Shown one piece after another: positions 16,551-54,850 of a DNA stretch of 64,000 bases. The translations under genes were made by a program, and so were the position numbers. The notes beneath the pieces are model-generated. The model was not told where the DNA came from, did not search any database, and saw nothing but the letters and a program-made list of their open reading frames with translations. The first letter of the stretch is position 1. The number at the start of each line of letters is the position of its first letter. The stretch is from Mustelus asterias (taxonomy: Eukaryota), in the NCBI RefSeq assembly GCF_964213995.1, contig NC_135810.1, forward strand, positions 1,922,001 to 1,986,000. The letters run 5' to 3'.

Positions 16551-16620
16551 CTGCTGCTCCTCCAGCCGCTCTCCGCTCGGCGCCTTCAGCTGGCCGGGGA
16601 CAGTCAGCTGACCCTGGTCC
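16551..16620 (-). other. ATP6V1A: ATP6V1A non-coding exon 1 (5' end approximate)
   Basis: CAG|gtaaac donor at 16551/16550 inside the CpG island, just downstream of NRF1/E-box motifs; a non-coding first exon is the known vertebrate structure. Confidence 0.7.
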
Positions 16621-17369: not shown

Positions 17370-17830
17370 TCCGAGAGAGTCCGCCCGGGTTCGGAGACAC
17401 TCGGCTCGGGCCGGGGTGATTCGGGGAGACTCGGTTCAAGCCCTGAGTTGTCGGAGGGACTCGGCTAAGCTCGGGCCCTGCGTTGGAGACTCGGCTGTCC
17501 TCGGGCACTGGTGGGGTGGGGGGGGCAGGGGGAGGTCGGAGAGACTCAGCTTCGTTCAGGCCGGGGCTGGAGTGACTCGCTCGGGTCGGAGGGACTCGGC
17601 TGAGCTCGGGCCGAGGCTGCGCAGTGACCCGGTTGGGCTCGGAGGCACTCGGTTCCGGTCGGGGCTGGGGAGACACGGCTGGGCTCGGGGGGGGGGGTCC
17701 GTGGGGTTCGGAAGTATTCGGCTAGACTCGGGCCAGGTCTCGGAGACACTCGACTCGCTTCGGGCCGGGGCTGGAGGGCACTCGGCTGGACTCGGGCCGG
17801 GTTCGGAAAGACTCGGCTCGGCTCCGAGCG
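17370..17830 (+). repeat. Degenerate CpG-rich tandem repeat (actcggct..gctcgggccg core) upstream of NAA50
   Basis: Recurrent gactcggct / ctcgggccgg motifs at roughly 30-35 bp spacing. Confidence 0.7.
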
Positions 17831-18015
17831 CCCCCTTCCCGAAGGCGGGGGAGGGGTCAGGGGTCGGAGGTGAGAGTGGGTGGCGCGGAGCGGAGCGTGC
17901 GCGGCGAGTGGCATGTGTTAGAGGCTGAAGAGTTTGGGCGATTTTTTTTTACCTCCATCCTCCTCGTCCCCCGCCGCTCGGTCACCAGGTGAAGACGGAC
18001 AAGCGCCCGCCCATC

Positions 18016-18023
18016 ATGAAGGG
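18016..18023 (+). CDS. NAA50: NAA50 exon 1 coding part (MKG)
   Basis: atcATG AAG GG|gtgagt in the CpG island; matches the known NAA50 N-terminus MKGSRIELGDVT. Confidence 0.9.
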
Positions 18024-19199
18024 GTGAGTAGAGCCGACGGGCGAGCGGTTGGCTGGCAGGGAAGGAGAGGCCGGGCCTGCTGGGGCTTTATCCCCCCCCT
18101 TTCCCTCTCTCTTCCCCCCCCCCCCCCCCCCCCCGCGGCCTCGGGGACGCGGCGGGAGTTGCTCCGCCAGAGTTTTGCTCCAAGTTGAAGTTGTTGCTGG
18201 AGTTGGGGCCTGACTCACTGCCTCACTCCCCCCAATACAGGGGAACCTTCCCCTCCTGCTCTGACTCCGGGAGCTGCATTCACAATCCGGATCAGAGCCT
18301 GGATCAGAATCCCAACCCCCCCCCCCCCCCCAGGATATTCCCTTACAATACTTCACTCAATCCACCCCCAGCCTCCCAACCATTGATTTATGATGTATTT
18401 TTATATATTTACACATTGACAGTCTGGAAGTTTGGTTGTAATGTTTCACCTGGTGCTTTCTGTCACTTTTCTCTTCTGCACTAATTGTCTGGGGATTTAT
18501 ATTTTAAAAATCTCAAGTTATTTGTAAAATTTCCAACTTCTGCCCCTTGGTGGCCTGTGGGCAACACAGTCAAATTCTCTCAACTTTTCTATCATTTACC
18601 TTTTTTAATCATTTGGCACGTTTCCTGTGTGGAGCTGGAAGACCAGTGTTAATACTTTATGACTCCCATTTAGAACAGTAACTGAAATGCCAATCACCCA
18701 ACACATTTGGAAGGGTGAGGATTGAAGTTTCTAAAGAAACCTGTTCACACAGAAGTGGTACCAAATTTTTGCTGATGTTTCTTAAACTTACGAAAATACT
18801 GCCATCGCTGCTTTAACTATTTTGTCAGGGTACTGCCATTTATTATGTTTTTAACATATTTTTGTATGGCCAAAGTTATGCAAAAGCAATTGTACAATTT
18901 GAAACAGACCTTTGACTTTAAACCAATTTGGGATGTTCTGAGGTTGTGTAATATATTTTATAAAAGTCTTTTTCTACTTAATGATTTTGCTGAATTTGAA
19001 AACACATTTGTATCCAAGAATATGCAAAGTTTGTCCTACACAGTTTGTCTGGGCATGCACTCTAATTTGTTTTTTGTGGAGTAAAAATTAAAGGAAGGAA
19101 TGGGATTAATAAAATAGCTATTATTAGTCTTCCATATTTGAAAAGGATGCATAATTGTTAATGTTTTGTCATGTTTATTTAATTTTTATGAATTAGAAT

Positions 19200-22919: not shown

Positions 22920-23855
22920 CCATGTTGAAGTGCAACAAGATCAGGACAATAATATAAAAGCAAAATACTGCGGATGCTGGAATCTGAAACAAAAACAGAA
23001 AATGCTGGAAAATCTCAGCAGGTCTGACAGCGTCAGTGGAGAGAGAATAGAGCCAAAGTTTCAGGATGACTCTTCATCAGAACAGACGTTAGCTCTATTC
23101 TTCAAGATCTGGACAATATCCAGGCTTGGGCTGATAAGTGGCAAGTAACATTCGCACCACACAAATGCCAGGCAATGACCATCACCAGTAAGAGACATTT
23201 TAAACACCATTCAATGGTGTTACCATCGCTGAATTCCCCCACTGTCAACATCTTTGGGGTTTCCATTGATCAGAAATTCAACTGGACTCATCACATAAAC
23301 ATAGTGGCTACAAGAGCAGGTCAAAGGCTAAGAATACTGCGGCAAGTAATTCACCTGCTGACTCCCCAAAGCCTGTCCATCATTTACAAGGCTCAAGTCA
23401 GGAGTGTGATGGAATACTGCCCACTTGCCTGGATGGGTGCAGCTCCAACAACACTCAAGAAACTTGACATCCAGGACAAAGCAGCCTGCTTGATTGGCAC
23501 CACATCCACTCCCTCCACCACCCAACGCTCAGTAGCAGCAGTGTGTACTATCTACAAGATGCACTGCAGAAATTCACCAAAGATCCTTAGACAGCACCTT
23601 CCAAACCCACAACCACTTCCATCTAGAAGGACAAAGGCAGCAGATACATGGGAACACCACCAGGTTCCCCTCCAAGCAACTCACCATCCTGACTTGAAAA
23701 TATATCACTGTTCCTTTGCAGTCGCTGGGTCAAAATCCTGGAATTCCCTCCCTAATGGCATTGTGGGTCAACCCACAGCACATGGACTGCAGGGATTCAA
23801 AAAGGCAGCTCACCATCACCTTCTCAAGGATAACTAGGGATGGGCATGTTCCACA
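22920..23855 (+). mobile_element. CR1-group LINE family B 3' fragment
   Basis: ORF 23175-23837 WTHHINIVATRAGQRLRILR..IYKAQVRSVMEYCPLAW; nearly identical to 51700-52470. Confidence 0.9.
22952..23102 (-). mobile_element. Penelope-like family B mini-insertion inside a LINE
   Basis: gcaaaatactgcggatgctgg...cagcaggtctgacagc family sequence; 16-bp TSD caagatc(a/t)ggacaata; CTGATGA...GAAAC on minus strand. Confidence 0.72.
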
Positions 23856-27214: not shown

Positions 27215-27637
27215 GTAAGAAGTCTCACAACACCAGGTTAAAGTCCAACAGGTTTATTTGGCAGCACAAGCTTTCGGAGCATTGCTCCTTCTTCAGGTGA
27301 GTGAAGAGTTGTGTTCACAAACAGGGCATACATAGACACAGACCCAATTTACAAGATAATGGTTGGAATGCGAGTCTTTACAGGTAATCAAGTCTTTACA
27401 GGTGCAGACAATGTGATTGGAGAGAGCGTTAAGCACAGGTTAAAGAGATGTGTATTGTCTCCAGCCAGGACAGTTAGTGAGATTTTGCAAGCCCAGGCAA
27501 GTCATGGGGGTTACAGATAGTGTGACATGAACCCAAGATCGCAGTTGAGGCCGCTCTCGTATGTGGCTATCAGTTTTTGCTTGGCGATTCTGCATTGTTG
27601 TGCGTCATGAAGGCTGCTTTGGAGAATGCATTTGTTT
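27215..27637 (-). mobile_element. Penelope-like element family A, 5'-truncated (GIY-YIG C-terminus + pLTR with hammerhead motif)
   Basis: Homologous to 28551-29000; 12-bp TSD ctcatttgttct (27203-27214 / 27638-27649); hammerhead motif 27265-27299. Confidence 0.8.
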
Positions 27638-28329
27638 CTCATTTGTTCTTTAAATGCCGCAATGAAACTTTGTTTAACTTCTTGCCTCTGAAGAGCAGAG
27701 TGCTATCCCAAAGGGATGATTTTTCTGTCTCCTACCATTGTGGCAGGCAAAGAACAACCTTCCAAGATTTTCAGGGTTGCTATGAAGGGTTCTTACCATC
27801 AGCAGTTCCAAGTAAATGACTAATGAAATTTAAACATTGCTGTATGTTCTTTTATATTACATAGAATTGGATAGTGTATTCAGCATTGAAACGAGCGGTT
27901 CAGCGGATCACAATGTGCAGTTATTCATGCTCCACACAAGCCTTCTTGCAACCTCTGTTCTCACTGCTCTCTGGGATAAGAGGTTTCTCCAGTATTAGTT
28001 CTTACTGACTATCTTCTACTTAAGGCTCCTTGTTCTGGTCTCCCACACGAGTGGAAACATTTTCTCTATGACTGCCATATTGAGCCCCGTGATAATGGTA
28101 ATGATCTTTACCAGCTCTCCCCACAGCACATTCTCTTTGCCAGAGGAATAAAATGACTGCCCATTCAGCCTTCCTGATAGCTATATCCTCTCCTTTCTGG
28201 TATCATCCTTGGAAAGGATGAATGTTTCCTTATTAGTGTTCTTCTCCGGCCAAAGCACTCATTACCTAAAGAGTGCATGACAATTAAATCTCAGGTAAGG
28301 CTTTTCAAAGCAGCTATTAATGATTCCCC

Positions 28330-29150
28330 TCCGTAGAATCCCTTCAGTGCAGAGGAAGACCATTCGGCCCATCAAGTCTGCATCGACTCCAAAAGAGCAT
28401 CTTGCCCAGTCCCACCCCGTCCCACCCTATCCTCATAACCCCGTGCATTTACCATGGTTAATCCACCTAATCTACATATATTTGGACACTAAGTGGCAAT
28501 TTAGCATGGCCAATCCACCTAAGCTGCACATCTTTGGACTGTGGAAGGAATGATAGCCAGGTTCCGCACACACAAGGACGGCCTCAACCGGGATATTGGG
28601 TTTATGTCACACTATTTCACATAAATATTTCTGCTTTTTTCCTCCTGAGTCTTTATCATGCGATCCTAGAATCAGAATTTATGTCACACTATTTGTAACT
28701 CCCACAGTTGCGTGGACCTGCAGAGTTTCACTGGCTGTCTTGTCTGGAGACAATACACATCTTTTTAGCCTGTCTTGATGCTCTCTCCACTCCCATTGTT
28801 TTGTTTCTTAAAGACTGGATTAGTTGTAAGTATTCGCATTCCAACCATTATTCATGTAAATTGAGTCTGTGTCTTATAAGTTCTGTTTGTGAACAGAATT
28901 CCCACTCACCTGAAGAAGGGGCTCAGAGCCTCGAAAGCTTGTGTGGCTTTTGCTACCAAATAAACCTGTTGGACTTTAACCTGGTGTTGTTAAACTTCTT
29001 ACTGTGGAAGGAAACCAGAGCACCCAGAGGAAACCCATGCAGACATGGGGCGGGTGTGCAAATTCCACACAGTCACCCAAGGATGGAATCGAACCCGTGT
29101 CCCTGGCGCTGTGAAGCAGTAGTGCTAACCACTGTGCCACCGTGTTGCTG
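28330..29150 (-). mobile_element. HE1 SINE (host of the Penelope-like insertion)
   Basis: V-SINE sequence on both sides of 28551-29000. Confidence 0.85.
28551..29000 (+). mobile_element. Penelope-like element family A, inserted into an HE1 SINE
   Basis: Encodes IARFRTHKDGLNRDIGFMSHYL* once the 60-bp insert and its duplication are removed (PLE GIY-YIG C-terminal GLN motif); hammerhead motif 28907-28943; AATAAA; 13-bp TSD actgtggaaggaa. Confidence 0.82.
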
Positions 29151-29434
29151 ACCTCATTGCTGTTGGTGATGCGACATTGCTATGAGAATCTGTTTTAGTA
29201 AGTTTGTTCCCTGTGTAGATATGTAGATTAAAACTGACCAAAAGTCAGGACAAGTTAATACAGTTGGCATGGTGTTGGAATTCGAAAGGGGGCAAGCTTC
29301 CTGTTTTGCGTTTAAAGATGAGCTACATTGGTTGCACTTTCCAGGAAGCTGATGTGTTCTGGGCTTCGGGAAACCCTGCAAACACCTAATGACTGCAGTC
29401 CCGTGCAGTGTTCAAGTGAAAACCTGATGATCCA

Positions 29435-30201
29435 GTGGTCCATTTTGGCAAGTCAAATGGGATGAAGGAGTACAATATTAAGGGAAAGACTCTTAGTCCT
29501 GTAGAGGATCAGAAGGACCTTGGGGTCCGGGTCCATAGGACTCTAAAATCGGCCCCGCAGGTGGAGGAGGTGGTTAAGAAGGCGTATGGTGTGCTGGCCT
29601 TTATCAATCGAGGGATTGAGTTTAGGAGTCCGGGGATAATGATGCAGCTATATAAGACCCTCGTCAGACCCCACTTGGAGTACTGTGCTCAGTTCTGGTC
29701 GCCTCATTACAGGAAGGATGTGGAAAAGATTGAAAGGGTGCAGAGGAGATTTACAAGGATGTTGCCTGGATTGAGTGGCATGCCTTATGAGGATAGGCTG
29801 AGGGAGCTCGGTCTTTTCTCCTTGGAGAGACGTAGGATGAGAGGAGACCTAATAGAGGTATATAAGATGTTGAGAGGCATAGATCGGGTGAACTCTCGGA
29901 GGCTTTTTCCCAGGGTGGAAATGGCTGCTACGAGAGGACACAGGTTTAAGGTGCTGGGGGGGTAGGTACAGGGGAAATGTTAGGGGGAAGTTTTTCACAC
30001 AGAGGGTGGTGGGCAAGTGGAGTCGGCTGCCGTCAGTGGTGGTGGAGGAAAACTCAATAGGGTCTTTTAAGAGACTCCTGGATGAGTACATGGGACTTAA
30101 TAGGATGGAGGGTTATAGGTAGGCCTAAAAGGTAGGGATATGTTCGGCACAACCTGTGGGGCCGAAGGGCCTGTTTTGTGCTGTAGTTTTCTATGTTCTA
30201 T
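29435..30201 (+). mobile_element. Relatively young 5'-truncated CR1/HER1-like LINE
   Basis: 176-aa open frame with LYKTLVRPHLEYCAQFWSP..IERVQRRFTRM; (ttctatg)-type microsatellite tail. Confidence 0.92.
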
Positions 30202-32087
30202 AACCACCCTGCTGTTTGTGACCGCTAGTTGTGTGGCTGCTCTCTTTCCTATTTTACAGTGGTGACTTCCAAACCAACAGCACTAAGCCCAATCATCACT
30301 GTGTACCATGCCAACAACACACAGATATCAGACTGTGGCAACTGAGAACGATCATCTTTTTAACTTTGTTCATTAAGGGGGTGCTGTGTTGAAGTCAAGG
30401 CGAAGATATGGAGCAAAAGGATCTTCCATGTGGACCTGGCTGATGAGTGCTTGACTTGGTCAAAAGGGAAAGAATATGCATTTATATAGCCCCCACAGGG
30501 CATCTCAGTGTCTTACAATGGAAACACAGAGGTAGGCAGAATGGTAGCCAATTTGATAATGACCAGATATCTTGAAAGTGATGTCGCTTGCTGGGTAAAT
30601 TTTGGCTCAGAGCATCTTTGACATACGAGATTCCTTGGCTCTACTTCAATGTGGGAGCAGGCAGGGCCTTTGTTTAAAGTGTCTTTTAAAAGATGACACC
30701 TCCAAAAGTGCAGCATTTTCTCATTATTGCCAGCCTGGATATTGTGCTCTAGATGCTGGAGTGAGACTTGGAACTCATGATCTTCTGACATGGGAAAGGT
30801 GTTAGTGGGAGAGACTAGGATCCGAGGACACAGCCTCAAGAGTAAAGGGACGACCAATTAGAACTGAGAAGAAGAGAAATTTCTTCAGTCAGAGGGTGGT
30901 TGAATCTATGGAATTCATTGCCACAAAGGGCTGTGGAGGCCAGGTCATTGAGTATACTTAAGACAGAGGTAGATAGGTTCTTGATTGGTAAGGGGATCAA
31001 AGCTTACAAGGAAAAAGTGGGAGAATGGGTTTGAGAAACTTATCTTCCCTGATTGAATGGTGGAGCAGACTCGATGGACCGAATAGCCTACTTCTGCTCA
31101 TATATCTTGTGGTCTTATAGAGGGGAGCGTGCTATCTACTGAGCCGCAACTAACATCTTGCCTCGATGAGCATTTTAATGTCTGTTCATTCTGCTGCTAC
31201 CTAATTTTTCCAGTATTTTTAATTGAGTTGATGTGTTGATATTTGCTTTTGGCATCATCACCATCAGCAGTTCGATTGCCACATGTAGTGTTGTATCCCT
31301 TGCTACTCATTGGGTCTGAGGTTGCTTTAGAATAAGCCTGTTGAGCATTAACAACAACTTTTAACAAACTTCTTAAAGTGTGATGATCACAGCTTTGGTG
31401 TGTATGGAACAGTTTTGTTGTGGGTCTTTCGTGCTCTGTTCCAGATAGTTGTGGAGTGGGATTGACAGTGGGTGTGTCTGTTCTCCGCTGCACTCCTCTA
31501 ACCTAGTACATGCCATGAGTTTTGGGAAAACTACCTGCCACAAATGGCTTATGTATTGTGCCAAACTCCTGTAGAGTCATTTTCCTTTTTTGGTGCTAGA
31601 TTCCATCATGCATAGAGGCTAATCAATTAACAATGACCACATAGGAACCAATCATCTGATGTCCTTTACTGAATTGATTCCAAGGTGCTTAGTTGTTAGT
31701 TTGCTTCAAGTTTGAGTATAGTCAGATGGAGAATAAGGAAAACCTATTCCTGTCAGCAACGATGAGTAAAGAAATTGAAATCCCATAGCATGATACTATT
31801 TTAACACTAACACCTGTTCAGACAGTCTAAGCAGTGTCCTTTAACAGCTGTCACTGCAAGCATAGCAAATCATTCTAACATATAACAGCCCATTTTATTT
31901 GCAAAGTGCCTAGGTAAGCTCGTAAGCCTGAGGTTTAGAACTGTTAGATGTGTCTATTCTGTCCAGCATTGATCAATTTAAGCTCAAAATAAGAAATGTT
32001 TATAAATGTAGATACAAAATTCAGAGAAAATGGAAAAGTACAGAAGTGGATTTTTCGCATTCTGAATAAACCAACGTATAAAAATAG

Positions 32088-32302
32088 AAACAATGATGGA
32101 AAATGCTGGAAAATCTCAGCAGGTCTGACAGCATCTGTGGGGAGAGAACAACAGAGCCAACGTTTCGAGTCAGGGTGACCCTTTGTCAGAGCTCCTGACT
32201 TGAAACGTTGGCTCTGTTCCCTCTCCACAGATGCTGTCAGACCTGCCGAGATTTTCCAGCATTTTCTGTTTCTGCTTCAGATTCCAGTTTGCTTTGATCT
32301 TA
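32088..32302. mobile_element. Penelope-like family B fold-back insertion
   Basis: Inverted arms ~32100-32174 / 32194-32265; 12-bp TSD gtataaaaatag; hammerhead-like motif 32154-32194 on minus strand. Confidence 0.78.
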
Positions 32303-32872
32303 GTATAAAAATAGGATTCTAAAGATTTGTTAATAAAATGTGGACTGACATCAAGGCTGATTCCAGGGATGGAGAGGTTTGTCTTGAGGAAAGGTTGAGT
32401 GGGTTGGGCCTCTGCTCATTGGACATTAGAGGAATGAGAGGCAATCTTATTGAAACATATAAAATTCTGAGGGGGCTTGGCAGAGTACATACGGAGATGA
32501 TGATTTACCTCATGGGAGAATCTAGAACTAGACAACAGAAAAATAAGGGGTCTTCCATTTGAGACTCTGATGAGAAGGATTTTTTTTTTCTGTCTGAGGG
32601 TCATTGGTCTTTGGAATTCTCTTCAGAGAGCCATGGAGCCAATGGTCATTGAATATATTTAAAAGTTAGATTTTTGACAGATTCCTGATAGTGTTAGGGT
32701 CCATTTTCCACTGCCATTTCTCTCTCTTGATTGAAGCAAGTAACGGGTGGTAGATACATGAGGCATCTGGATAGATACGTGATCATGGCTGATCTCCTGT
32801 CTTAACTCCACTTTCCCACCCGCTGCCTGTATCCCTAATTCCCTGGACAACCAAATATTTGTCTATCTCAAT

Positions 32873-33112
32873 GACAATTGCATTGTCTGCACTTGTAAAA
32901 ACGTGATTGCCTGTTGAGATTCGCGTTCCAACCATTATCTTGTAATTGAGTCTGTGTCTATATATGCCCTGTTTGTGAACTCAACTCCCACTCACCTGAT
33001 GGAGCAGCGCTCCGAAAGTTCGTGCTACCAAATAAACCTGTTGGACTTTAACCTGGTGTTGTGAGACTTCTTACTGTGCCTACCCCAGTCCAACGCCAGC
33101 ATCTCCACATCA
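32873..33112 (+). mobile_element. Penelope-like family A pLTR fragment (hammerhead core deleted) within a CR1 relic
   Basis: Same sequence as the other family A copies; core reads CTGAT-GGAGC (GAA lost). Confidence 0.78.
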
Positions 33113-34059
33113 ATATTAAACATACTCCATGATAGAGCATCCACACCCTCCTGTGGTAGAGAATACTAAAAACTCAATATTTTGAGTGAAATCTTTTTCT
33201 CCTCATCCCAGTCCTAAATGATTGGCCCCATATCCTGAGATTGTGACCCTGTGTTCTAGATTCCTCAGCTAACAGAAACAATCGCACTGTCCAGCCCTTT
33301 CAGAATCTTGTATGTTTTAATGAAATCACCTCCTGTCTTCTAAACTCCAGAGAGTATAGACTCAATTAGCTGAGCCTCTTGCCATAGGACAACCCTCTCA
33401 TCGAAGGAACCAATCTAGCGAACCTTCACTGTACTGCCTGTAGTGTAACTATATCCTTTCTTAAACGCGGACACTATTCCAGGTGAGGCTTCACAAAAAC
33501 CCTATCCAATTGTAGTAAGACTTTCTTCTTCTTGTATTTCAATCCTCTTGCAGTAAAGTCCAATATCTGCCATTTGCCTTCCTAAATGCTTGCTATATCT
33601 GTGTGTTAGCATTCTCTGTTAACTTGTATGAGTTAACCCCAATACTCGCTGAACAAATATTATTTTCTATTCTTTCGTAGCTTTGAAGAGACCATTCAGC
33701 CCAGTGTGTCAGTGCTGGATCTTTAACTGAAGCTAAATAGTCTAATCCTATTTTGATACTCTTACTGATTGCATTAAAGTCTTTGTTTCCCTTTGTTTAA
33801 GCATTTCACTATTAACCTCTTCTTGTTTTCATTCCATTGAACTTACACTATCCGATCCATAGCCCTGATATCCTTCCTATGTATAATGGAGTGCCCAGGA
33901 TACCATGCAGTGCAGTGGCCTAGTCAATGACTTGTACATATTCAGCTGCAGTTCCTTCAAGTCAGTGCTCCATGCAAGAAACCTAATGAGTTTTGATACA
34001 CTTGGCACTGTATTAACATGCAGACTTTGAAGTCAGGTGGTTGTTGATTCCAGTGCCTC

Positions 34060-34390
34060 AGCAGAGACTTAAGTCTCAGCCTGGAGTTTGAACTTCAGTG
34101 CAGCACTGTGGGAGTACTGCACTGTTAGAGGTGCCGACTTTCTGGTGAACTGAGGCAGCAACTGCCCTCGGGGATGTAAAAGATCTCATGGCCGCTATTG
34201 AAGGAGGAGCAGAGAGTTTCCCTAACACCGTGGCCAGTGTTTATCTCTCAATCAATGTTAGTAAAATAGATTATCTGGTCAATATCACGTCTCTGTCTCT
34301 GTGGGAATTTGGTGTGTGTAAATAGGTGTAAAGCACTTTGGGATATCCTAAGTTTATGAAGTGTACTATAGAAATAAAAAAACTTTCCTT
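34060..34390 (+). mobile_element. Deu-domain SINE (SacSINE1/AmnSINE1-like); related copies ~5750-5950, 30470-30800(-), 42030-42370(-), 58735-59490
   Basis: cagtgcagcactg.gggagt.ctgcactgt.agaggtgcc...gatgtaaaagatc.catggc..ctattg and gtaaagcactttgg tail. Confidence 0.7.
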
Positions 34391-35762
34391 TCTTTTAATT
34401 AAAACAGAGTTTTGAAATTGTTTGAAAGGATAATTCAAATGAAACAACCTAAGAATTGAAGGAAGTAGACGACATTCAGAATAACCAGCTATGGATTTTC
34501 ATATCAGTAAATGCAGAATAATCAACCAAGAATTTTGGTGCAAGCTTTGGAAAGGGTAAAAAGGAGCTTTACTCGAATGGTTCCAGGGATGAGGGGTTAC
34601 AGTTATTGGGGTGGAAGAGTTAGGGATGTTCTCCTTAATTCGGAGAAGGGTATGATGGGTATAGAGGGATATGGGCCAAATGTGGGCAATTGGGACTAGC
34701 TTAGGGGTTTTTTAAAAAAAAAGGGCAGCATGGACAAGTTGGGCCAAAGGGCCTGTTTCCATGCTGTAAACCTCTGACTCTATAATCATGAAGAGGTTAG
34801 TTAGAGTAAGTAACAAAAAACATTTTTCAAACCTAAAGGGTTGGCAAGCAGAGGGCACAGATTTACGAGTATTGGTGAAAGAAGCAGAGGCGCCATGAGC
34901 CAAGACTTGTTAAATGATGAGTGATTAGGATTTGGAATAGGGTAGTGGATACACATTCAATCATAGCCTTCACAAGGAAATTGGATAAATACTAGGAGGA
35001 GAAAAAATTGCAGGATTTGGAGAAATAACGGGAATGGGGCTAACTAGATTGCCCTTCTAAAGAACTGGCAGACTTAGTGGGCTGAATGGCCTCCTGAACC
35101 GTACTATTCAAAACTGTACTACTCTATGATTCTATCACTGAGTTTTGGCATGGTTTCTGCATTCAAACATTGGTACGGAATTTTGTTTGTATGTCATTGG
35201 TTAGACCACAGCTGGAGTATGGTGGGCAATTCTGGGCACAACAGGATAAAGGTAAAGGTCTTAAAGAGGGTACAGAGGAAGTTTATCACACTGTTCTCAG
35301 GGATTCCTTGTTCTGAGGAGAGATTGAAAAAGTTAGGACAGTTCTGGTTAAAATAGGGAAGGCTAAAAATGACCTAATCGAGGTTTTTAAGGTGGTTCTC
35401 AGAGAGTAAATAGAGAAAAACCGTTCCGTTAGGTGAGTGGGTTAATAACCAGAGATCAGAGGTTTAAAATCATTAGCAAAAGATGTAGAGCGAGAGGAAA
35501 TGTTTTCACTTTGAGTTGTCAGGTACTGGAACTCTACCTGAAAAGGTGATGGAAGCTTATTCCATGAATAATTTTAAAAGTGAGTTGATAGGTGCTTGCG
35601 GTTGAGGAACTTGCAGGGTTGTGGACAAAAGGTGGAGACTGCTCTTTCAAAGAGTCCGCATGAGCATGACGGGCTGAATGTTTGTCTGCTATAAGTTTCT
35701 ATGATTCAAATTGAAGTATTTCTCCAGGCACAGTTATATGAAACGTCTTTGTTTTGTTTCAG

Positions 35763-35899
35763 TAGCCGGATTGAGCTTGGAGATGTTACTCCACATAACA
35801 TCAAACAGCTGAAACGGTTAAACCAAGTCATCTTCCCTGTCAGTTACAACGACAAATTCTACAAGGATGTGCTGGAGGTTGGAGAACTTGCAAAATTAG
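35763..35899 (+). CDS. NAA50: NAA50 exon 2
   Basis: (G)SRIELGDVTPHNIKQLKRLNQVIFPVSYNDKFYKDVLEVGELAKL; ttcag acceptor (cagtag NAGNAG), G|gtaaaa donor; 137 nt. Confidence 0.97.
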
Positions 35900-36149
35900 G
35901 TAAAATTTGTATTTTTGCATGTACATGTATTTACTGCTAAATTGATTTTAAAATAAATTGTCAATGTTTTGTTTGGTCGTATTTTGCCATGATTGAAACC
36001 TGTGCTGGCGCCATTGTCAAATAGTTAGCTAAATTAATATGAGAATCCAATATTTTTTTAATATTCATAGGATGTGGGCATCATCAGGCCAGCATTTAGG
36101 AATATAGGAGCAGAAATAGGCCTTTCAGCCATCAAGTCTGCTCCACCAT

Positions 36150-37415
36150 TCATAGAAACATAGAAACTAGAAGCAGGTGTAGGCCATTCGGCCCTTTGAG
36201 CCTGCTCCGCCATTCATTTTGATCATGGCTGATCATCAAATTCAATATCCTGCTCCCCATATCCCTTGATCCATTTAGCCCCAAGAACTATATCTAATTT
36301 CTTCTTGAAATCAGACAACATTTTGGCCTCAACTACATTCTGTGGGAGTGAATCCCACACATTCACCACCCTCTGGATGAAGGATTTTCTCCTCATCTCA
36401 GTTCTAAAAGGTTTACCCCTTATCCTCAAACTATGACCCCTAGTTCTGGACTGCCCCCACCATTGGGAACATTCTTTCTGAATCTACCCTGTCTAACCCT
36501 GTTAGAATTTTATAAGTTTCTATCAGATCCCCTCTCACTCTTCTAAACTCCAGTGAATATAATCCTAATCGATTTAGTCTTTCCTCATATGACAGACCTG
36601 CCATCCCAGGAATTAGCCCGGTAAACCTTTGTTGTACTCCCTCTATAGCAAGGACATCCTTCCTCAGATAAGGACACCAAACTTACGCACAATATTCCAG
36701 ATGTGGCTTCACCAACACCCTATACAATTGCAGCAAAACATTTCTATCCCTATACGCAAATCCTTTCGCTATGAAGGCCAACATACTATTTGCCTTCTTT
36801 ACTGCCTGCTGTACCTGCACGCTTACTTTCAGTGACTGATGCATGAAGACTCCAAGGTCTCGTTGAATATCCATCTCTCTCAATTTACACCCATTCAAGT
36901 AATAATCTGTCTTCCTATTATTCATAGAAATCATAGAAACCCTACAGTGCAGAAGGACGCCATTCGGCCCATCGAGTCTACACCGACCACAATCCCACCC
37001 AGGCCCTACCCCCACATATTTACCCGCTAATCCCTCAAACCTACGCATCTCAGGACTCTAAGGGGCAATTTTTAACCTGGCCAATCAACCTAACCCGCAC
37101 ATCTTTGGACTGTGGGAGGAAACCGGAGCACCCGGAAGAAACCCACGCAGACACAAGGAGAATGTGCAAACTCCACACAGACAGTGACCCAAGCCGGGAA
37201 TCGAACCCAGGTCCCTGGAGCTGTGAAGCAGCAGTGCTAACCACTGTGCTACCGTGCCGCCCTCTTATTGCTACCAAAGTAGATAACCTCACATTTATCC
37301 ACATTATACTGCATCTGCCATGCAGATACCCACACACTCAGCTTGTCCAAATCACGCTGAAGCATCTCTGCATCCTCCTCACAGCTCACCCTCTCACCCA
37401 ACTTTGTATCACCTG
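36150..37415 (-). mobile_element. CR1/HER1-like LINE fragment with nested full-length HE1 SINE (~36921-37262, minus)
   Basis: QRDLDKL..W...WQMQYNVDKC, KANSMLAFI, KPHLEYC motifs interrupted by an intact V-SINE. Confidence 0.9.
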
Positions 37416-40400
37416 CAACGTTATACGTGTACTTACATGCCATGACAAGCAGCCATTTATTGAAGGTGATGCAAAGCAGAGGGATTCATCAAAATGTTTT
37501 GTGTATATGAAACCACTAGAAAATCCCTCTTCCTGCTTGGGATCTGAATCTAGCTCCAAAAAATTGTGATAAATCTTTTGATTTTCTTTCAAGCCCAATA
37601 ATCAAAATAAAATAATAGTGTTACTGCCATGCATTCAGTCAAGCTTTGGACTGGCGTGTGTTCTGAATGTTTTTTGGAATCTAACTGCTTGCATGTTGGG
37701 ACCATGCAGCAGGGTGACTTCTACCTAAGTTTCTCCCAAAGGGAAGATTGAAATTTTAGCTTTTGAATGCCATACCACCCAGCATCTCTGTTGCATGTTT
37801 GCCACAGATGGAATCCAGATTGGATTGTGTAGGTCAGGGTTTCTGCTTCTCTTGGTACTTAACTCATGCTTTCAGAAAGTCAAGATTTCTACTTCCGCTC
37901 TGTAGGTAAATTATTGCTTGAATGTTACAAAGAATGGCAAGTGACCATGGAATGTGACTACAGCTGCAAGCTAAAGGGGGAACAGCTTCTCCTTTGGCAC
38001 ACTGAAGGGGTGGGAGGAGGCTTGTTGAATCATAGAGCGATTCGGCACAGAAGGAGGCCATTTGGCCCTGTGCCAGTTCTTTGGTAGGGCTATTCGATTA
38101 ATCCCACTGCATCGCTGCTCTTCAACTGCTCGATAATATATTTTCCCATTTGAAAATTACTATTTAATCTGCTTCCACCGCCCTTTCAGACAGCGCATTC
38201 CAGATCACAATAATTCACTGCATTTTTTAAAAAAAAGCTTCATGTCGCAGACCTGAAGCAGCATTGACCAGTTGGGCTGAATGGCCTGTTTCTGTGCTGC
38301 AAATTCTATGTAACTAAAGGCATGAGCAAGATCTGTAACCGGAGCTTGAGCATATTTAAAATCGCAGGTACTAGAGGCTCATACTTTGAAATGTCTGGAG
38401 TGGCCCTGTCTTCTGTTAGTACAGTACCAGATTATCTAATTCCTTGTGTTTGTGTGCGTAGAGGGTTGGGGGGTGTATAGGTGGGTGTGTATGTCTGTGT
38501 GTGTTTAGGTTTGTGCAGATTGGAATGTGTTTTTGAGTCGTGGAGTGAGTTTGATGATGTTGCCCTTGCATCTAGCTGTTGGCAATCCTGAATCACATTG
38601 GAACCTAGCTTTTCAGTGCAAATCTTACAACAATAAATGGTTTCTATGTCAGGAAAGCTTGAAAGCGCAATCTCCTGAGTAGTCCATGACTTTGTGTTCA
38701 TTCTACAGGTGGCTGGTACTTTTTTTTTCATATGAGGCACCCCTGCCAATGCAGCACTCCTTCAGTTCTCCATTGACATCAGTTGAGTTCTGAGATGCCA
38801 GCCCCCTTTCTTCATTGAATCTTTTAAGACATTGACCCAGCCTGGTTAGGAATGGGGTCATGGTTATCCCCTCTGGTACTGGCTCAATCTGGAGGTGGAC
38901 CCATATTGGTTTAGTCTAGTTTAAAGGGAGAGAATCCCAGGCAGATAGAAGAGGAGGACAGGCAATGTTGACATTTTGTCTGTCTGACTACCCTGAACTA
39001 CTTTTGATTTGAAATGACCAAATCCTTGTCCGTGCCTGTTAAAGTAGCAAGGATGCCCTACATGCAAGCACGGTTACAGATTGTCACTGTTTCTATGCTA
39101 CTGTTCTAGAAGGAACTTGTACAATTTTTGTACAAAAGTTAAATGGGATATGCACGAATGAATCCCATGACTGTACAACAGAAATCTGTAGTAGTTTTAC
39201 TAATTGAATCCAAAGGCAAGCCTTTCCTCACTGCATATTGAAATGTTAACAGAAGGGGCCATTCAAACCTGCAAGAGCACGCGTGCATTACTGATCACAG
39301 ACCATCTGTGTTTCAGCAGCTTCTCTTGGCATTTAACAACAGTGGTTGGTATGAGATTTGAGCAGTTCTGTTAGATTTTTTTGGTATTGTGTTCAAGGGG
39401 AAATAAAGCCTGGAAGTAAAAAGAAATGTCCTAATAATATTTCCTGTGTTTTATAGCTTATAGAATCATTCGGCACAGCAGGAGGCCTTACGGCCCATTG
39501 TGTCTGTGCTGGCTCTCCAAAGGAGCTAGTGAATTAAAACCATTCCTAAAGTGAGATTTATTTTCCTTTTGAGTATTTTTCCAGGTCCCTTTTGAAAGTT
39601 CCTATTGAATCTGCTTCCATCACCTTTCCTGGCAGTGCATTCCAAATCTCAACAATTCACTGTGATTTATAAAAACCCCTCTGGCTGGTTACTTGTCTCC
39701 TGCCTATGGAAACAGTTTGATTTGATTTATTATTGTCAGATGTGTTAGTAAACAGTGAAAAGTATTGTTTCTTGCGCGCAATGGAGACACAGCACACCGT
39801 TCATAGAGAAGGAAAGGAGAGCGTGCAGAATGTACTGGCTGGAGTGTAGAGAAAGACGAACTTGGTGCGAGGTAGGTCCATTCAAAAGTCTAATAGCAAC
39901 AGGGAAGAAGCTGTTCTTGAGTCGGTTTCTCCTTGTCTATCCAATCAAAACCCCACCATAACCTTCACCAGACTAACAATGAAATGTTGGCACCTTACTA
40001 CTTCCCTTTGCTACGTCACTGCCTCATCAGCATCTGATTCACTCTTTTTATGTGGATCTTTACCAGCCTTGGAGTTGGTTTACAACTGGCTCCCTCCTGC
40101 AAAGCTGAGTAAGCAACACCAGTTGCCTGGAAGGAGGTTTTGCAGGGTTCTGAGGATTAAATTTGAAATGATTGGGATCCCCAGCGGCAGTCGCCCTAAC
40201 CTGCATCGCTGGAGAAGCTGAAGGGAGAGCTGGGAGGCAATAATAGGGTCAAATTAAACTATAAAATTTAAGATACTTCTCAAAAAAGTGATTAATTGTA
40301 AAAGATATGGAAAATACTTTACACAAAGTTTAATCTCTTTAAAGAAAGATGTATTCTCAGAAAATGATGTAGCTGAGGAAATGCAGCTTATTGTATAATA

Positions 40401-40491
40401 ATTTTTGTTGGGCTTGTTTTAGTTGGAAATGTTTATATGTTTAGTGCTGAATGGTGAAATTAAAGAATTGTTTTATCTGTTTTATTTTCAG

Positions 40492-40611
40492 CTTATTTCA
40501 ATGACATTGCAGTGGGTGCAGTGTGTTGTAGGGTGGATCATTCGCAAAACCAAAAGCGATTGTACATCATGACCCTGGGATGCCTGGCACCATACCGCAG
40601 GCTAGGAATAG
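40492..40611 (+). CDS. NAA50: NAA50 exon 3 (GNAT acetyl-CoA binding RRLGIG motif)
   Basis: AYFNDIAVGAVCCRVDHSQNQKRLYIMTLGCLAPYRRLGI(G); ttttcag acceptor, gtaagt donor; 120 nt. Confidence 0.97.
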
Positions 40612-41014
40612 GTAAGTTGAATAAGAGGATTACAACATTAAGTTTCCTCTGGTGCCTTTATAAACTCAAAGTTTCTTACCTAATTCGACAATGTTGCTTC
40701 AACTCTGCTTGTATTTCTTTGAGCATAAGAGCTTAAGGCTGATCTTATTAGAGGATTTAAGATGATTCAAGTTGATAAGTTAGATAGACACATTAGAGTG
40801 GAACATTCAAACTAGAGTTGGATGCTATGTTAAATGATAGTCAAGCGATGAACGTCAGTGCACTAAATAGCCTGTTCTCATCTTTGGCTTTGATTTTTAT
40901 TGTCTGTTTATCCAGTATATTCCTTGAGCATTATTATGAGCAATACAACATTGAGTGATTGTTCTGACCATCAGTTGCTGGTTAGCTTTGCTCAAGCCTG
41001 CTGGACATGAATAA

Positions 41015-41175
41015 CTGTGCACTGTTTGAGAGCACATTCCCACTCCATCTGACGAAGGAGCAGTGCTCCGAAAGCTTATGGTGTTTGCTACCAAATAAAT
41101 CTGTTGGACTTTAACCTGGTGTTGTGAGACTTCTTACTGTGCTTACCTCAGTCCAACGCCGGCATCTCCACATCA
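41015..41175 (+). mobile_element. Penelope-like family A mini-insertion with intact hammerhead motif
   Basis: 161 bp between perfect 12-bp TSDs ggacatgaataa (41003-41014 / 41176-41187). Confidence 0.82.
41045..41081 (+). ncRNA. Minimal type-I hammerhead ribozyme motif (PLE type)
   Basis: CCAT-CTGACGA-A-GGAGC-agt-GCTCC-GAAA-GCTT-ATGG: core, stem II, palindromic stem III, stem I CCAU/AUGG. Confidence 0.7.
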
Positions 41176-41753
41176 GGACATGAATAAAGCAGAGATGCTT
41201 TACGGGGATATCATTGATGTCTTCTCTGCTATGTGGAGTGATGTTGACACTCCTAGGGTAGTGCAGAACTCTGGGTAGAACTCCAATTTTCCCATCCAAC
41301 ATGAAACCATCTGAAATGTTTTTGTTTGCTATGTTGCCTCGAATTGTTGTTGACACCAGATGTTGGTGAGTATAGAGTTAGCTGCTCTTGGTGCTCAACA
41401 CCCCTCCTTCAACCCAGATGCTCAAGTCCATGTTTTAAGGCTGTGATGGGGATGCTAGATACACTATATTGCTGAGCAAATAGGAAACCTGATCTGCTTT
41501 TGTAGAGTCTGCAGCAGATATGTGGCTTTATATGGCAGCAGGTCTCACTGAAGACATTTTGATCTACTTTTCCTCTTGGATGAAATATTGTCTTTGTGAA
41601 ACAAACTGCAGAAGTAATACATTTTTTGAAGCTCTGGTAAAGCCTCAAAGCGATTCTGGGGAATAGTGCTGGAAGAAATGAGCTCCTTGTGCGAACTGAA
41701 TCCGTTTGGGGTCAAAAAAGAGTTTAGCTTTGGTCAAATGACCACATCTCCTA

Positions 41754-49114: not shown

Positions 49115-50985
49115 AGTTCTTTCATGAAATGTGGGCATCGTCTCCTCCTCACAACATTCGTTGTCCATTATTAATTGCCCTTGAGAAGGTGGCGAGTCGC
49201 TGCCTTGAACTTCTGCAGTCCATGTGGTGTAGGTACACCCACTGTTCTGTGAGGGAGCTCCAGGGTTTTGATCCGGCTACAGTGAAGAAAGGCCGATTAT
49301 ATTTCCAAGTCAGGGTGGTGTGTGGCTCGGAAGGGAACTTGCAAACGGTGGTGTTCCCATGTGTCTGTTGCCCTTGTCTTTCTAGGTGGTAGTGATTGAT
49401 GGTTTGGAAGGTTCTGTCAAAGGAGCCTTGGGTAGTTGCTACAGTGCATCTTGTATGTAGTACACACTGCTACCACTGTGTGTCATTGGTGGAGGGAGTG
49501 AATGCTTAGCTTAGTTGATGCAGTGCTGATCATGGAGGCTTCTGTGTCCTAGACGGTGTTGAGCTCCTTCTCTGTCCCAGATGGTGTTGTTGAACCTGCT
49601 CTTGTCCATCACACTCCTGACTTGAGCCTTGTAGATTGTGGACAGGCTTTGGGGAATTGGGAGGTGAGTTACTTACTGCAGAGTTCCCAGCCTTTGCTCT
49701 TGTAACGACAGCATTTATATGACTGGTCCAGTTCAGTTTCTGGTCAGTGGTAATCCCCAGGATGTTGTTGATAGGGGATTCAGTGATGATAATGCCATTG
49801 GATGTCATGGGGAAATGGTTAGATTCTCTCTTGTTGGAGATGGTCCTTGCCCAGCACTTATGTGACACAATGTTACTTGACACTTGCCAGCCCAAACCTG
49901 AATGTTGTCCTGGCCTTGCTGCAGATGGACGCAGACTGCTTCAGTATCTGAGGAGTTGTGAATGGTGCTGAACATTCTGCAGTCATCAGCGATCATCCCT
50001 CATGGTGGCAGGAAGGTCATTAATGAAGCAACTGAAAATGGTTGAATCTAGGACACTATTGTGAGGAACTTTGAAGCAAAGCCCTGTGATTGAGATAATT
50101 CACTTCAAATAACTTGAACCATCTTCCTCTGTGCTAGGCATGACTAATTAGTGGAGAGTTTTCCCCTGATTCCCATTGACTTCAATTTTGTCAGAGCTCC
50201 TTCATGCCACACTCTGTCCAATGCTGGCATGATGATAAGGGCAGTCATCCTCACCTCACCTCTGGAATTCCGTCCTTTTGTCTACGTTTGGAACAAGGCT
50301 GTAACAAGGTCTGGAACTGAGTGGTTGTAGCAGAACCCTAGCTGAGCACCAGCGAGCAGGTTATTGCTGTGTGAGTGCCATTTCACAGCACTGTCGACGA
50401 CACCTTCCTTCACTGATGATCGAGAGAAGGTCTGGTCGGATTGGATTTGTCCCACTTTTTGCAGACAGGATACACCTGGGCAATTTTTCATATTGTTGGG
50501 TGGATGTCAGAGTTGTAGCTGTATTGGAATCCTTAGCTCCATAGCTCTGTCTATTGCATGCTGCTTCTGCTGTTTGTCATGCAAATAGTCCTGTGTTGTA
50601 GCTTCACCAGGTTGATGCTTCTTTTGGGTAGGCTTGGTGCATGCCCTCCTGCACTCTTCATTGAACCAGGGTTGATCCCTTGACTTGGTGCTATGATAGA
50701 ATGAGGGATATTCTAGGCCATGAGGTTACAGATTGTGGTTGGATACAATTCTGCTGCTGCTGATGGTCCACTGCATCTCATGGATGCCCAGTTTTGAGCT
50801 ACTGGATCTGTTCTGAATTTAGGATGGTGGTGCCACGCAGCACCATATAGTGTATGCTCAGTGGGAAGTGGGACTTGATCTTCACAAGGCCTCTGGGGTG
50901 TCACTGCTACCTATAATGTCATGGACAGTTGCATCCAGAATAGAGAGATTGGTGAGGACCAAGTCTAATAGCTTTTTCTCTTTGC
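49115..50985 (-). mobile_element. CR1-group LINE family B, decayed copy with RT
   Basis: MIADDCRMFSTI (RT catalytic motif) and [17 protein letters not shown]; many frameshifts. Confidence 0.85.
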
Positions 50986-51059
50986 CTCTGAATTACTAGT
51001 CCAATGACATGACCACTGTTTCCTCCTGGGGAAATGGATAGTGCAAATCAGGGAGCAGC

Positions 51060-52525
51060 CAAAGAAACAGGACTGGGATATTCCAGAAGAGTTTCAACAC
51101 TGGCACCTGCCCAACAATGTGGAAAATTGCCCGTGTATGTCCTGTGTACACAAAGCAGGACAAATCCAACCCGGCCAATTACCGCCCAATCAGTCTACTC
51201 TCGATCATCAGTAAAGTGATGGAAGGGGTCATCAACAGAGCTATCAAGCAGCACCTGCTCAGCAATAACCTGCTCAGTGACGCCCAGTTTGGGTTTCACC
51301 AGGGTCACTCAGCTTCTGACCTCATTACAGCCTTGGTTCACACATGGACAAAAGAGCTGAATTCCAGAGGTGAGGTGAGAGTGACAGCCCTTGACATCAA
51401 GACCACATTCGACCGAGTGTGGCATCAAGGAGCCCTAGCGAAACTGGAATCGATGGGTATCAGGGGCACACTCTCCACTGGTTGGAGTCATACCTGGCAC
51501 ATAGATGGTTGTGGAGGGTCAGTCATCTCAGCTCCAGGACATCTCTGCAGGAGTCCCTCAGGGTAGTGTCCTAGACCCAACAATCTTCAGCTGCTTCATC
51601 AATGACCCTCCCACCATCATAAGGTCAGAAGTGGGGATGTTTACCAATGACTGCACAATGTTCACCATTCGCGGCGACTCAGATACTGAAGCAGTCCATG
51701 TTCAAATGCAACAAGATCTGGACAGCATCCAGGCTTGGGTTGACAAGTGGCAAGTAACATTCGTGCCACACAAATGCCAGGCAATGACCATCACCAATAA
51801 GAGACACTCTAACCACTGCCCCATGGCATTCAATGGTGTAACCATCACTGAATCCTCCACTGTCAACATCCTTGGGGTTGCCATTGACCAGAAACACTCC
51901 ACATAAACACAGTGGCTACAAGAACAGGTCAAAGGCTAGGAATACCGTGGCAAGTAACTCACCTCCTGACTCCACAGAGCTAATCCACCATCTACAAAGC
52001 ACAAGTCAGGAGTGTGATGGAATACTCCCCACTTGCCTGGATGGGTGCAGCTCCAACAACACTCAAGAAGCTTGACACCATCCAGGACAAAGCAGCCCAC
52101 TTGATTGGCACCACATCTACAAACATCCACTCCCTCCACCACCGACGCTCAGTAGCAGCAGTGTGTACTATCTACAAGATGCACTGCAGCAATTCATCAA
52201 AGATCCTTAGACAGCACCTTCCAAACCCACAACCACTTCCATCTAGAAGGACAAGGGCAGCAGATACATGGGAACACCACCACCCACAAGTTCCCCTCCA
52301 AACCACTCACCATCCTGACTTGAAAATATATCACTGTTCCTTCACAGTCGCTGGGTCAAAATCCTGGAATTCCCTCCCTAACGGCATTGTGGGTCAACCC
52401 ACAGCACATGGATTGCAGGGATTCAAGAAGGCAGCTCACCACCACCTTCTCAAGAGCAACTAGGGATGGGCAATAAATGCTGGCCCAGCCAGCGACGCTT
52501 ATGTCCTACGAATGAATAAAGAAAA
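51060..52525 (+). mobile_element. CR1-group LINE family B, RT region to 3' end
   Basis: WKIARVCPVYTK..NPANYRPISLLS..QFGF..ALDIKTTFDRVWH..GVPQGSVL..FTNDC; A-rich tail. Confidence 0.92.
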
Positions 52526-53160: not shown

Positions 53161-53454
53161 AGGCTGTTCCTAGACAAAGGAAGCAGATACGTGGGAACAC
53201 CATCACGTGCAAGTTCTCCAAGCCACACTTGGAAATATATTGCCGTTCCTTCACTGTCGCTGGATCAAAATCCTGGAACTCCCTCCCTAATAGTATGGTG
53301 GACTGCAGCAGTTCAAGAGGCAGCTCAACACAACCTTGTCAAGGGCAATTAGGGATGGGTAATACATGCTGGACTTGCCGCTGGTGTCCACATCCGTGTA
53401 TGAATAAAGATAAGTTGTTGAAATTGAGTGAGTATTGATGTGTTCTTGAGCTTG

Positions 53455-54850
53455 GAATGTATGTAAGAAATAGGAGCAGGAGTAGATCATATGGCCTGTC
53501 AAACCCGCTTCAAAGTTCAATATAATCTTGGGCTCCAACTCCATTTATCTGCCCACTCCCCATATCCCTTTATTCTCTGAGAGAACAAAAATCTCCATAA
53601 ATATATGTTCAATGATTGAGTATTCACCACCCTCTGGCAAAGCAAATTTCAAAGATTCACAACCACTTAAGTGAAGAAATCTATCCTCACCTCAGCCATA
53701 GATGATTGTTCCCTTGTTCTGGGACTGTGCCTCCAACTTTTAGATTCCCCAGCCAAGGGAAACAACCTTTTGGGTCTACCCAGCCAACCCCTTTCAGAAT
53801 GTTGTATGTTTCATTCTTTCATCACCTTTCATTCTTTTTAACTCCAGAGAATGTTAAGCCAGTTTACTCTGCCTCTCATCACAGCAATCAATCGCGAACC
53901 TTTGCTTTACCGCCTCCAATGTAAATATCTCCTTCCTTAAATATGGAGAACAAAACTGCGCACACTATTCCAGGTGTGGCCTCACCAAGGTCCAATAAAA
54001 TTGTAGCAAAACCTTCTTCTTCTTATGCTCTAATTCCCTTGCAATAAAGACTAACATGCAATTTCTTTTCCTAATTGTTTACTATTCCTGCATTCCTTGT
54101 AAGAGTATGTCTCTTTGAACATCATCATTTACAAGTTTCACTCACTTAAAAAAAAACTTTACTGTTCTCATGAACAAAGTGAATAATCTCTCACTTCCCT
54201 ACATTTATACTCATTCTGTCATCTTGTTGCCCACTTAACTAACCTGTATATCTCTTTGCTGCCTCTTTGTGTACTGTAAGAAGTTTAACAACACCAGGTT
54301 AAAGTCCAACAGGTTTATTTGGTAGCAAAAGGCTTTTGCTACCAAATAAACCTGTTGAACTTTAACCTGGTGTTGTTAAACTTCTTACTGTGTTTACCCC
54401 AGTCCAACGCCGGCATCTCCACGTCATCTTTGTGTCCTCCCCATAGCTTGCATTCCTGTGTGCTTTGTATAATCAGCAAAATTAAATCATTACTCTGTCT
54501 CTTCAAGGTCATTACAGATTGCAAATAGCTGAGATCACAGCAACAATCCTTGTGGAACTCCACTCGTCACAGCATGCCAACTTTGTCCCATTAATGCCTG
54601 CTCCTTATTTACTCAATCCTCTATCCATGCTAATATATGATCCTCAGCTCCAAGACCTCTTATTTTGTGTACTAATGTTTTGTGCGTTTTAGAAATCCAA
54701 GTATGCTACATCTACAGGTTCCGTTTTACCCTATGAGTTACATCCTCAAAAAAAGAACAGAATTTGTCAAACACAATTTCCTTTTTCTAAAACCATGTTG
54801 ACTTTTCTGATCATATGATTTTCTAAGTGCACTGTTAAGGATTTCTTAAA
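53455..54850 (-). mobile_element. Decayed CR1/HER1-like LINE
   Basis: Nucleotide similarity to the 7805-8710 and 36150-37415 copies. Confidence 0.75.
54276..54426 (+). mobile_element. Family A fold-back insertion (113-bp palindrome + tail)
   Basis: 56-bp inverted arms with 1 mismatch around one central G; 9-bp TSD tctttgtgt (54264-54272 / 54427-54435). Confidence 0.85.

What the first reader, a model, noticed from the sequence alone, without database searches (positions are those of the whole stretch)
27215..41187. Family of short Penelope-like insertions carrying minimal hammerhead ribozymes with covarying stems
Seen: four homologous insertions (27215-27637 -, 28551-29000 +, 32873-33112 +, 41015-41175 +) share the layout stemI-CUGANGA-A-stemII-GAAA-GCUU-stemI'. 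The stems vary between copies while keeping pairing: stem I is CAC/GUG at 27.3k and 28.9k but CCAU/AUGG at 41.0k; stem II is GGAGC/GCUCC versus GGGGC/GCCUC with different loops; N7 is A or C. Stem III is only the palindrome AAGCUU and the predicted cleavage triplet is CUU. An extra A follows A9 in all three intact copies. Established: pseudo-LTRs of Penelope-like elements (PLEs) carry minimal type-I hammerheads thought to work as dimers. Inference: this is a shark PLE/ribozyme family whose shortest members (161 bp, 12-bp TSD) are little more than ribozyme + polyA signal + tail, resembling non-autonomous retrozyme-like elements.
Basis: partly seen in the sequence, partly recalled or inferred. 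Interest (0 to 1): 0.8.

Follow-up and report, generated by a model that had tools for sequence, protein, structure and literature searches.

The report
Shark retrotransposon fragments carrying hammerhead ribozymes
These are broken-off ends of a very abundant shark jumping gene of a known type, each carrying the small self-cutting RNA motif already described for that type in other animals; they are not a separate mini-element.

Summary
Three copies carry an intact minimal type I hammerhead (0 hits in 100 null sequences), the fourth a damaged one, and a fifth, unlisted insertion has none. They are 5'-truncated ends of an autonomous Penelope-like element (PLE): an 892-aa ORF with reverse transcriptase, a CX4CXXC linker (Neptune/Nematis type) and a GIY-YIG nuclease; unit 3,017 bp; 164,125 exact genome matches to a 3' 32-mer. 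Across subfamilies the catalytic core stays fixed while N7 (C/A/U) and N17 (U/A/C, never G) switch. Covariation is real but amounts to two two-sided events. The 'retrozyme-like minimal member' is not supported: 5' ends are scattered, every subfamily links to the ORF, and the 'tail' is the leader before the ATG. 83 of 97 sampled copies read through the cleavage site, with no significant pile-up there. Minimal hammerheads in fish PLEs, including the extra A and the palindrome, were described in 2014; the tail and the read-through match the anole Poseidon study of 2024. I found no paper on this shark family. New member of a known kind, notable mainly for scale (about 10^5 intact motifs, extrapolated).

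The parts
27215..27637 (-). Copy 1 (subfamily B): last ORF codons + pLTR, no tail
   Evidence: tblastn to ORF aa 858-891 at 27609-27517; 12-bp duplication at 27203 and 27638
27265..27299 (-). Minimal hammerhead of copy 1; predicted cut after 27268
28551..29000 (+). Copy 2 (young sublineage of subfamily C): ORF end + pLTR, no tail; inserted into another repeat
   Evidence: 13-bp duplication at 28538 and 29001
28619..28677 (+). About 60-bp insert beside a duplicated 16-17-mer at the ORF end, a mark of the GCCUC sublineage
   Evidence: 6 further arms in 5 other loci, all with GGGGC-UCAGA-GCCUC
28907..28943 (+). Minimal hammerhead of copy 2; predicted cut after 28940
32873..33112 (+). Copy 3 (subfamily D): partial pLTR + tail; hammerhead at 32993-33024 damaged
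41015..41175 (+). Copy 4 (subfamily A): 5'-truncated pLTR + tail
   Evidence: 12-bp TSD at 41003 and 41176
41045..41081 (+). Minimal hammerhead of copy 4; predicted cut after 41077
41094..41099 (+). AATAAA; its first bases lie in a predicted distal extension of stem I; use as poly(A) signal not shown
41142..41175 (+). Tail = leader that precedes the ORF's ATG in full elements
54273..54426 (.).
   Evidence: 9-bp duplication at 54264 and 54427

Best explanation
The insertions are dead, 5'-truncated copies of an autonomous, Neptune-type Penelope-like retrotransposon. Shown: the unit is leader + 892-aa RT/GIY-YIG ORF + pLTR, 3,017 bp from one hammerhead to the next; copies end at two sites about 35-38 nt apart (pLTR end, and the ATG), are truncated at scattered 5' points, often carry an inverted arm, and have TSDs. 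Inferred (by analogy with anole Poseidon): the protein nicks target DNA and starts reverse transcription inside a more-than-unit RNA at those two sites, copying an RNA that is intact at the hammerhead. Inferred: the hammerhead is a real, weak ribozyme under selection in the master elements that cuts the multimeric transcript 97 nt before the ATG at another stage, probably helped by the element's protein or by a second hammerhead. Single short copies have no partner and no ORF and most likely do nothing.
For: RVT_1 E 2e-9; GIY-YIG E 8e-4, below Pfam's cut-off; DKG, YIDD, CHSNLCKTC and VYLIRC..C..YIG in L095; open frames of 880-940 codons in several loci; shark proteins 79-92% identical. ORF pieces beside subfamily B in 28 of 29, C 26 of 29, D 23 of 29 loci. 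3' ends of 97 sampled arms: 40 at the pLTR end, 33 around the ATG, 17 elsewhere, 7 unparsed; inverted arm within 1.3 kb in 57 of 97. In 43 long copies, 1 of 13 core positions versus 39 of 97 upstream columns have a second base in 3 or more copies (Fisher p 0.029; the one is C11.1>T at a CpG); among 57 copies with a matched core N7 is C29/A22/U6, N17 U34/A20/C3/G0, extra A 57 of 57. Pair 2.1-1.1 C-G 26 / U-A 14 of 43; pair 10.3-11.3 A-U 22 / G-U 14 / G-C 6. PMC11167929 reports the same tail logic and a protein-assisted hammerhead not needed for insertion in vitro.
Against: No cleavage shown. Two-sided changes map to only two branches. The fourth pair of stem I is U-U in 18 of 43, so stem I is only 3 bp there. 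Folding z-scores are weak (-0.4 to -1.6). The active dimer (-19.5 kcal/mol) is no better than two monomers (-10.3 each) and far above a mispaired duplex (-34.4). No significant excess of 5' ends at the site (p 0.24). The 3' 32-mer is as conserved as the core, so conservation alone is not specific. U17 is a slow triplet (recalled, not from a call). Clade rests on one motif; no tree with named references.
Confidence: 0.85

Rival explanations
1. The shortest copies form a separate non-autonomous, retrozyme-like element (ribozyme + poly(A) signal + tail) that is itself amplified.
For: 50 of 97 sampled arms start within 64 nt upstream of the cut site or just after it; truncation per base at risk is about three times higher there than upstream (50/5748 vs 19/7311, p 1.6e-6, boundary chosen after seeing the data). 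A 2026 preprint derives animal retrozymes from pLTRs and finds some in one chondrichthyan (10.64898/2026.07.22.740005).
Against: No shared 5' end: starts are spread over the whole range. Short copies carry the same subfamily variants as ORF-linked ones. No head-to-tail array of short units in the window; the loci were not screened for arrays on purpose.
Confidence: 0.07
2. The motif is hammerhead-derived but kept as a protein-binding or structural element of the pLTR, not as a cleaving ribozyme.
For: Copies read through the site: 83 of 97 at the 3' pLTR and 6 of 10 long elements at the upstream pLTR. U17 dominates young subfamilies. Catalytic mutants of the anole hammerhead did not reduce insertion in vitro (PMC11167929).
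Against: The positions that change between lineages are those a cleaving hammerhead tolerates (N7, N17 not G; rule recalled), and those that stay are the catalytic ones. The anole motif does cleave when protein is added.
Confidence: 0.12
3. Cleavage at two hammerheads and re-ligation give a 3-kb circular RNA that is the real template, which explains tandem copies and read-through.
For: Copies that run leader-ORF-pLTR-leader and upstream pLTRs that cross the site intact; model proposed in PMC4209133.
Against: An uncleaved multimeric transcript explains the same structures; no RNA evidence here.
Confidence: 0.15

Closest known systems
Minimal hammerheads of metazoan PLEs (Xena, Poseidon, Neptune of fishes; coelacanth, Xenopus), Cervera and de la Pena 2014, PMC4209133 (parts 1-2 of 4 read)
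   Same: Type I motif in the pLTR, no real helix III, extra nucleotide between 9 and 10.1, G10.1-C11.1, palindromic 15.2-16.2, mostly lone copies from truncated elements, opposed pairs 100-700 bp apart, families with covariation.
   Different: Sharks are not named in the parts read or in 2 of 3 supplementary files searched. Counts there: about 4,000 (coelacanth) and 9,000 (Xenopus tropicalis); here 14,342 exact matches for one subfamily alone. Stems here are shorter (I 3-4 bp, II 5-7 bp) than the Schistosoma ones described.
Neptune/Nematis clades of EN+ PLEs, Craig et al. 2021, PMC8557442 (passages read)
   Same: RT then C-terminal GIY-YIG, CX2-5CxxC linker, 5' truncation, partial tandems, inverted 5' arm, 30-40-bp tail on one end.
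   Different: No tree with named references, so Neptune versus Nematis is not separated; no Repbase or Dfam comparison possible.
Poseidon of Anolis carolinensis (PAc), Frangieh et al. 2024, PMC11167929 (parts 1-2 of 4 read)
   Same: Two insertion ends define the tail; hammerhead upstream of them (85-92 nt there, about 60 and 97 nt here); template uncleaved.
   Different: Other clade. In PAc the ORF starts inside the hammerhead and the RT start sites lie 111-118 nt into the ORF; here the hammerhead is wholly non-coding and the second end falls on the start codon.
Animal non-LTR retrozymes, Cervera and de la Pena 2020 (PMC7229834, passages read); Li, Clavereau, Pollet 2026 (bioRxiv 10.64898/2026.07.22.740005, parts 1-3 of 5 read)
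   Same: Type I hammerhead in a short repeat related to pLTRs.
   Different: Retrozymes are tandem repeats of defined units without ORF; these copies are dispersed, of variable length and ORF-linked.

Membership tests
EN+ Penelope-like element | Single ORF with RT and C-terminal GIY-YIG nuclease | tested here: met
   892-aa ORF; RVT_1 E 2e-9; GIY-YIG E 8e-4, under the curated cut-off; motifs
EN+ Penelope-like element | pLTRs from partial tandems, inverted 5' arm | tested here: met
   L095 pLTR-ORF-pLTR; inverted arm in 57 of 97
EN+ Penelope-like element | 30-40-bp tail on one end | tested here: met
   two 3'-end modes, 40 and 33 of 97
Neptune/Nematis clades | CX2-5CxxC motif between RT and nuclease | tested here: met
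   CHSNLCKTC at residue 754; definition from PMC8557442
Neptune clade | RT groups with named Neptune elements in a tree | not testable with these tools
   no Repbase/Dfam references on hand
Minimal type I hammerhead of PLEs | Conserved core, extra nucleotide after A9, G10.1-C11.1, palindromic 15.2-16.2 | tested here: met
Minimal type I hammerhead of PLEs | Stems supported by compensatory change | tested here: met
   two two-sided events on the tree; no R-scape significance
Minimal type I hammerhead of PLEs | Self-cleavage (dimer or protein-assisted) | not testable with these tools
   5'-end test shows no trace; energies do not favour the dimer
Rfam hammerhead families | Covariance-model match | tested here: not met
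   no hit to E 10 in the window
Non-LTR retrozyme | Defined non-coding unit without link to an ORF | tested here: not met
   scattered 5' ends, ORF linkage
Non-LTR retrozyme | Tandem arrays of hammerhead units | tested here: inconclusive
   none in the window; genome not screened
Non-LTR retrozyme | Abundant circular RNA | not testable with these tools
   no raw RNA reads available

The most novel reading that the evidence does not exclude
This shark family holds one of the largest loads of minimal hammerheads in a vertebrate (about 10^5 intact motifs) and is a natural mutagenesis series showing that cleavage is under selection in a Neptune element even though the copied RNA is intact at the site. 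The ribozyme would act as a deliberately slow (U17), protein- or dimer-gated switch between mRNA and template, its extended stem I hiding the AAUAAA and stalling the reverse transcriptase, which mass-produces ribozyme-sized insertions.
Probability: 0.3. Interest if true: 0.55.

Novelty: new member of a known kind. Interest (0 to 1): 0.3.

Why it matters
What PLE hammerheads do in vivo is still open. This family has open-ORF copies, young subfamilies with natural N7, N17 and stem variants, and very high copy number, so it is a good second test system (Neptune type) beside the anole Poseidon. The kind of system is known; the gain is an extension to sharks and a convenient model, not a new principle.

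Tried and rejected
Rfam scan: no hammerhead hit; the miRNA hits (mir-7445, mir-649, mir-216, all below gathering score) are inverted PLE junctions. Loose core pattern not above chance. Own-genome DNA search with copy 2 returned nothing (uninformative, the tool skips very common words); the subfamily was found through L093. In vivo trace of cleavage from 5' ends: 8 ends within 3 nt of the site, p 0.24; among 30 ORF-start loci none of the 10 long elements starts at the site (30 of 1,282 matches, two of the 10 look like duplicates). Sequencing runs: no RNA holder listed; four contig sets laid cannot show ends, strand or level and are not used as evidence. Cofolding does not favour the active dimer. 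Earlier findings of the scan: none. The idea that the second family starts at a fixed point beside its hammerhead could not be settled: the query was biased and the offsets were miscomputed. Literature: searches found no paper on hammerheads in shark PLEs; one search gave no source for triplet rates; the preprint's supplements are closed and one supplement of PMC4209133 could not be searched, and either may list shark motifs.

Full report
Observation. Three carry stem I - CUGANGA - A - stem II - GAAA - GCUU - stem I'; the 32873 copy has lost three core bases. A descriptor that demands core and both stems finds these three and nothing else in the window, and nothing in 100 null sequences. Rfam has no match. 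A fifth insertion at 54273-54426 is a head-to-head pair of ends without ribozyme. Exact duplications of 12, 13, 12 and 9 bp flank copies 1, 2, 4 and 5.

What the element is. The window lies in a 3.68-Gb genome. Relatives of the 161-bp copy extend upstream by varying lengths into a reading frame. That frame leads to loci with 880-940 open codons. The protein of L095 has 892 residues with DKG, YIDD, a CHSNLCKTC linker and a GIY-YIG-type end; Pfam gives RVT_1 at E 2e-9 and GIY-YIG at E 8e-4, below its cut-off. The closest named proteins are from sharks at 79-92% identity, then turtles at about 43%. The linker places it with Neptune/Nematis by the definition in PMC8557442. L095 shows pLTR-ORF-pLTR with hammerheads 3,017 bp apart, the cut site 97 nt before the ATG.

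Scale. A 3' 32-mer has 164,125 exact matches, the subfamily A hammerhead 35-mer 14,342, an ORF-start 29-mer 1,282; reversed controls 0. I sampled 97 of the first 100 listed plus-strand matches of the 32-mer (3 Mb of contig C1, chosen without regard to the 5' end). 62 of 97 have an intact core, which extrapolates to about 10^5 motifs; that figure rests on one region. PMC4209133 gives about 4,000 and 9,000 minimal motifs for coelacanth and Xenopus tropicalis.

Is there a minimal non-autonomous member? No sign. 5' ends in the sample run from -14 to beyond +300 relative to the cut site with no sharp mode; 3 of 97 fall within 5 nt of the 161-bp copy's start. ORF pieces lie in 28 of 29, 26 of 29 and 23 of 29 loci of subfamilies B, C and D. 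The tail is the leader directly before the ATG; 3' ends fall at the pLTR end (40 of 97) or around the ATG (33 of 97). The boundary was chosen after the fact, breakpoints come from a simple aligner, and a falling rate with distance from the 3' end could be general, so a link to the structure is only a suggestion.

Is it a ribozyme? In 43 of the 97 copies that reach 110 nt or more upstream (one row misparsed, kept), 1 of 13 core positions against 39 of 97 flank columns vary in 3 or more copies (p 0.029). In 57 of 63 copies with a matched core, N7 is C, A or U, N17 is U, A or C and never G, and the extra base is always A. Pair 2.1-1.1 switches C-G to U-A on one branch; pair 10.3-11.3 goes A-U, G-U, G-C in another lineage. 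So covariation is real but is two events, not many. Against: stem I has only 3 bp in many copies, folding z-scores are weak, the active dimer is not favoured, and 83 of 97 copies cross the site intact with no significant excess of ends there; long elements also cross the upstream site. A second repeat family in the window has the same core with other stems and the palindrome ACGU in place of AGCU.

How it most likely works. Shown: anatomy, two 3' ends, truncation, read-through, pattern of conservation. Inferred from the anole Poseidon (PMC11167929): the protein nicks DNA and starts reverse transcription at two internal sites of an uncleaved, more-than-unit RNA; the hammerhead cuts only with help and at another stage. 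Lone short copies lack both partner and protein and are probably inert.

Novelty. My searches found no description for sharks, but Repbase and Dfam could not be checked, a 2026 preprint reports retrozymes and PLEs in one chondrichthyan (its supplements are closed), and expansion of Penelope-like elements in the whale shark is published (10.1101/443036, passages read). The NUH rule and the slowness of U17 are recalled, not from a call. Verdict: new member of a known kind, interest 0.3.

Noticed in passing
window 22952-23081, 32087-32290, 57035-57113, 60046-60259; L166-L194: A second, older repeat family with its own minimal hammerhead (AGCU CUGACGA A GGGUCA..GACUC GAAA CGUU GGCU; palindrome ACGU), often as short inverted pairs; G8 is often A (CpG decay likely). 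L167 and L186 link it to a distinct GIY-YIG-like frame (36-48% identity), so probably another PLE.
   Followed up: partly
L241, L102, L258, L267: Ends of the main family sit directly against the region just 3' of the second family's hammerhead in four loci; a possible target preference, numbers too small.
   Followed up: no
L285-L314: 20 of 30 ORF-start matches continue less than 270 nt into the ORF, most only 36-90 nt: a third class of insertion ends just inside the ORF, or short internal fragments.
   Followed up: no
window 28619-28677; L223, L234, L264, L265, L304: A young sublineage carries an insert of about 60 bp beside a duplicated 16-17-mer at the ORF end; the frame still closes (..HYFT*), and all such copies have stem II GGGGC/GCCUC.
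   Followed up: yes
window 41024-41098 and 27245-27325: Predicted distal stem I pairs UGUUUG with CAAAUA and so covers part of the AAUAAA in two subfamilies; not predicted for copy 2.
   Followed up: partly
window 54284-54380, 32103-32262, 60060-60212: Inverted PLE junctions form long hairpins that score as miRNA precursors below gathering thresholds: a source of false miRNA annotations, possibly of small RNAs.
   Followed up: no
window 23070-23846, 49152-52482, 29420-29965, 52567-53372: Fragments of LINE-type reverse transcriptase frames; family names not tested.
   Followed up: no
window 36929-37258 and copies at 4089, 21055, 22354, 25869, 26852, 28334-29144, 57114: A SINE-like repeat of about 300 bp with many copies; copy 2 is inserted into one.
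   Followed up: no
window 61485-64000; 15400-18400: A tandem array with period about 64-65 bp to the window end, and a GC-rich, low-complexity stretch that may be a promoter island.
   Followed up: no
L117-L133: Many subfamily C matches on small contigs share identical positions and flanks, likely one insertion inside a multi-copy segment; not used for the counts from the unbiased sample.
   Followed up: no
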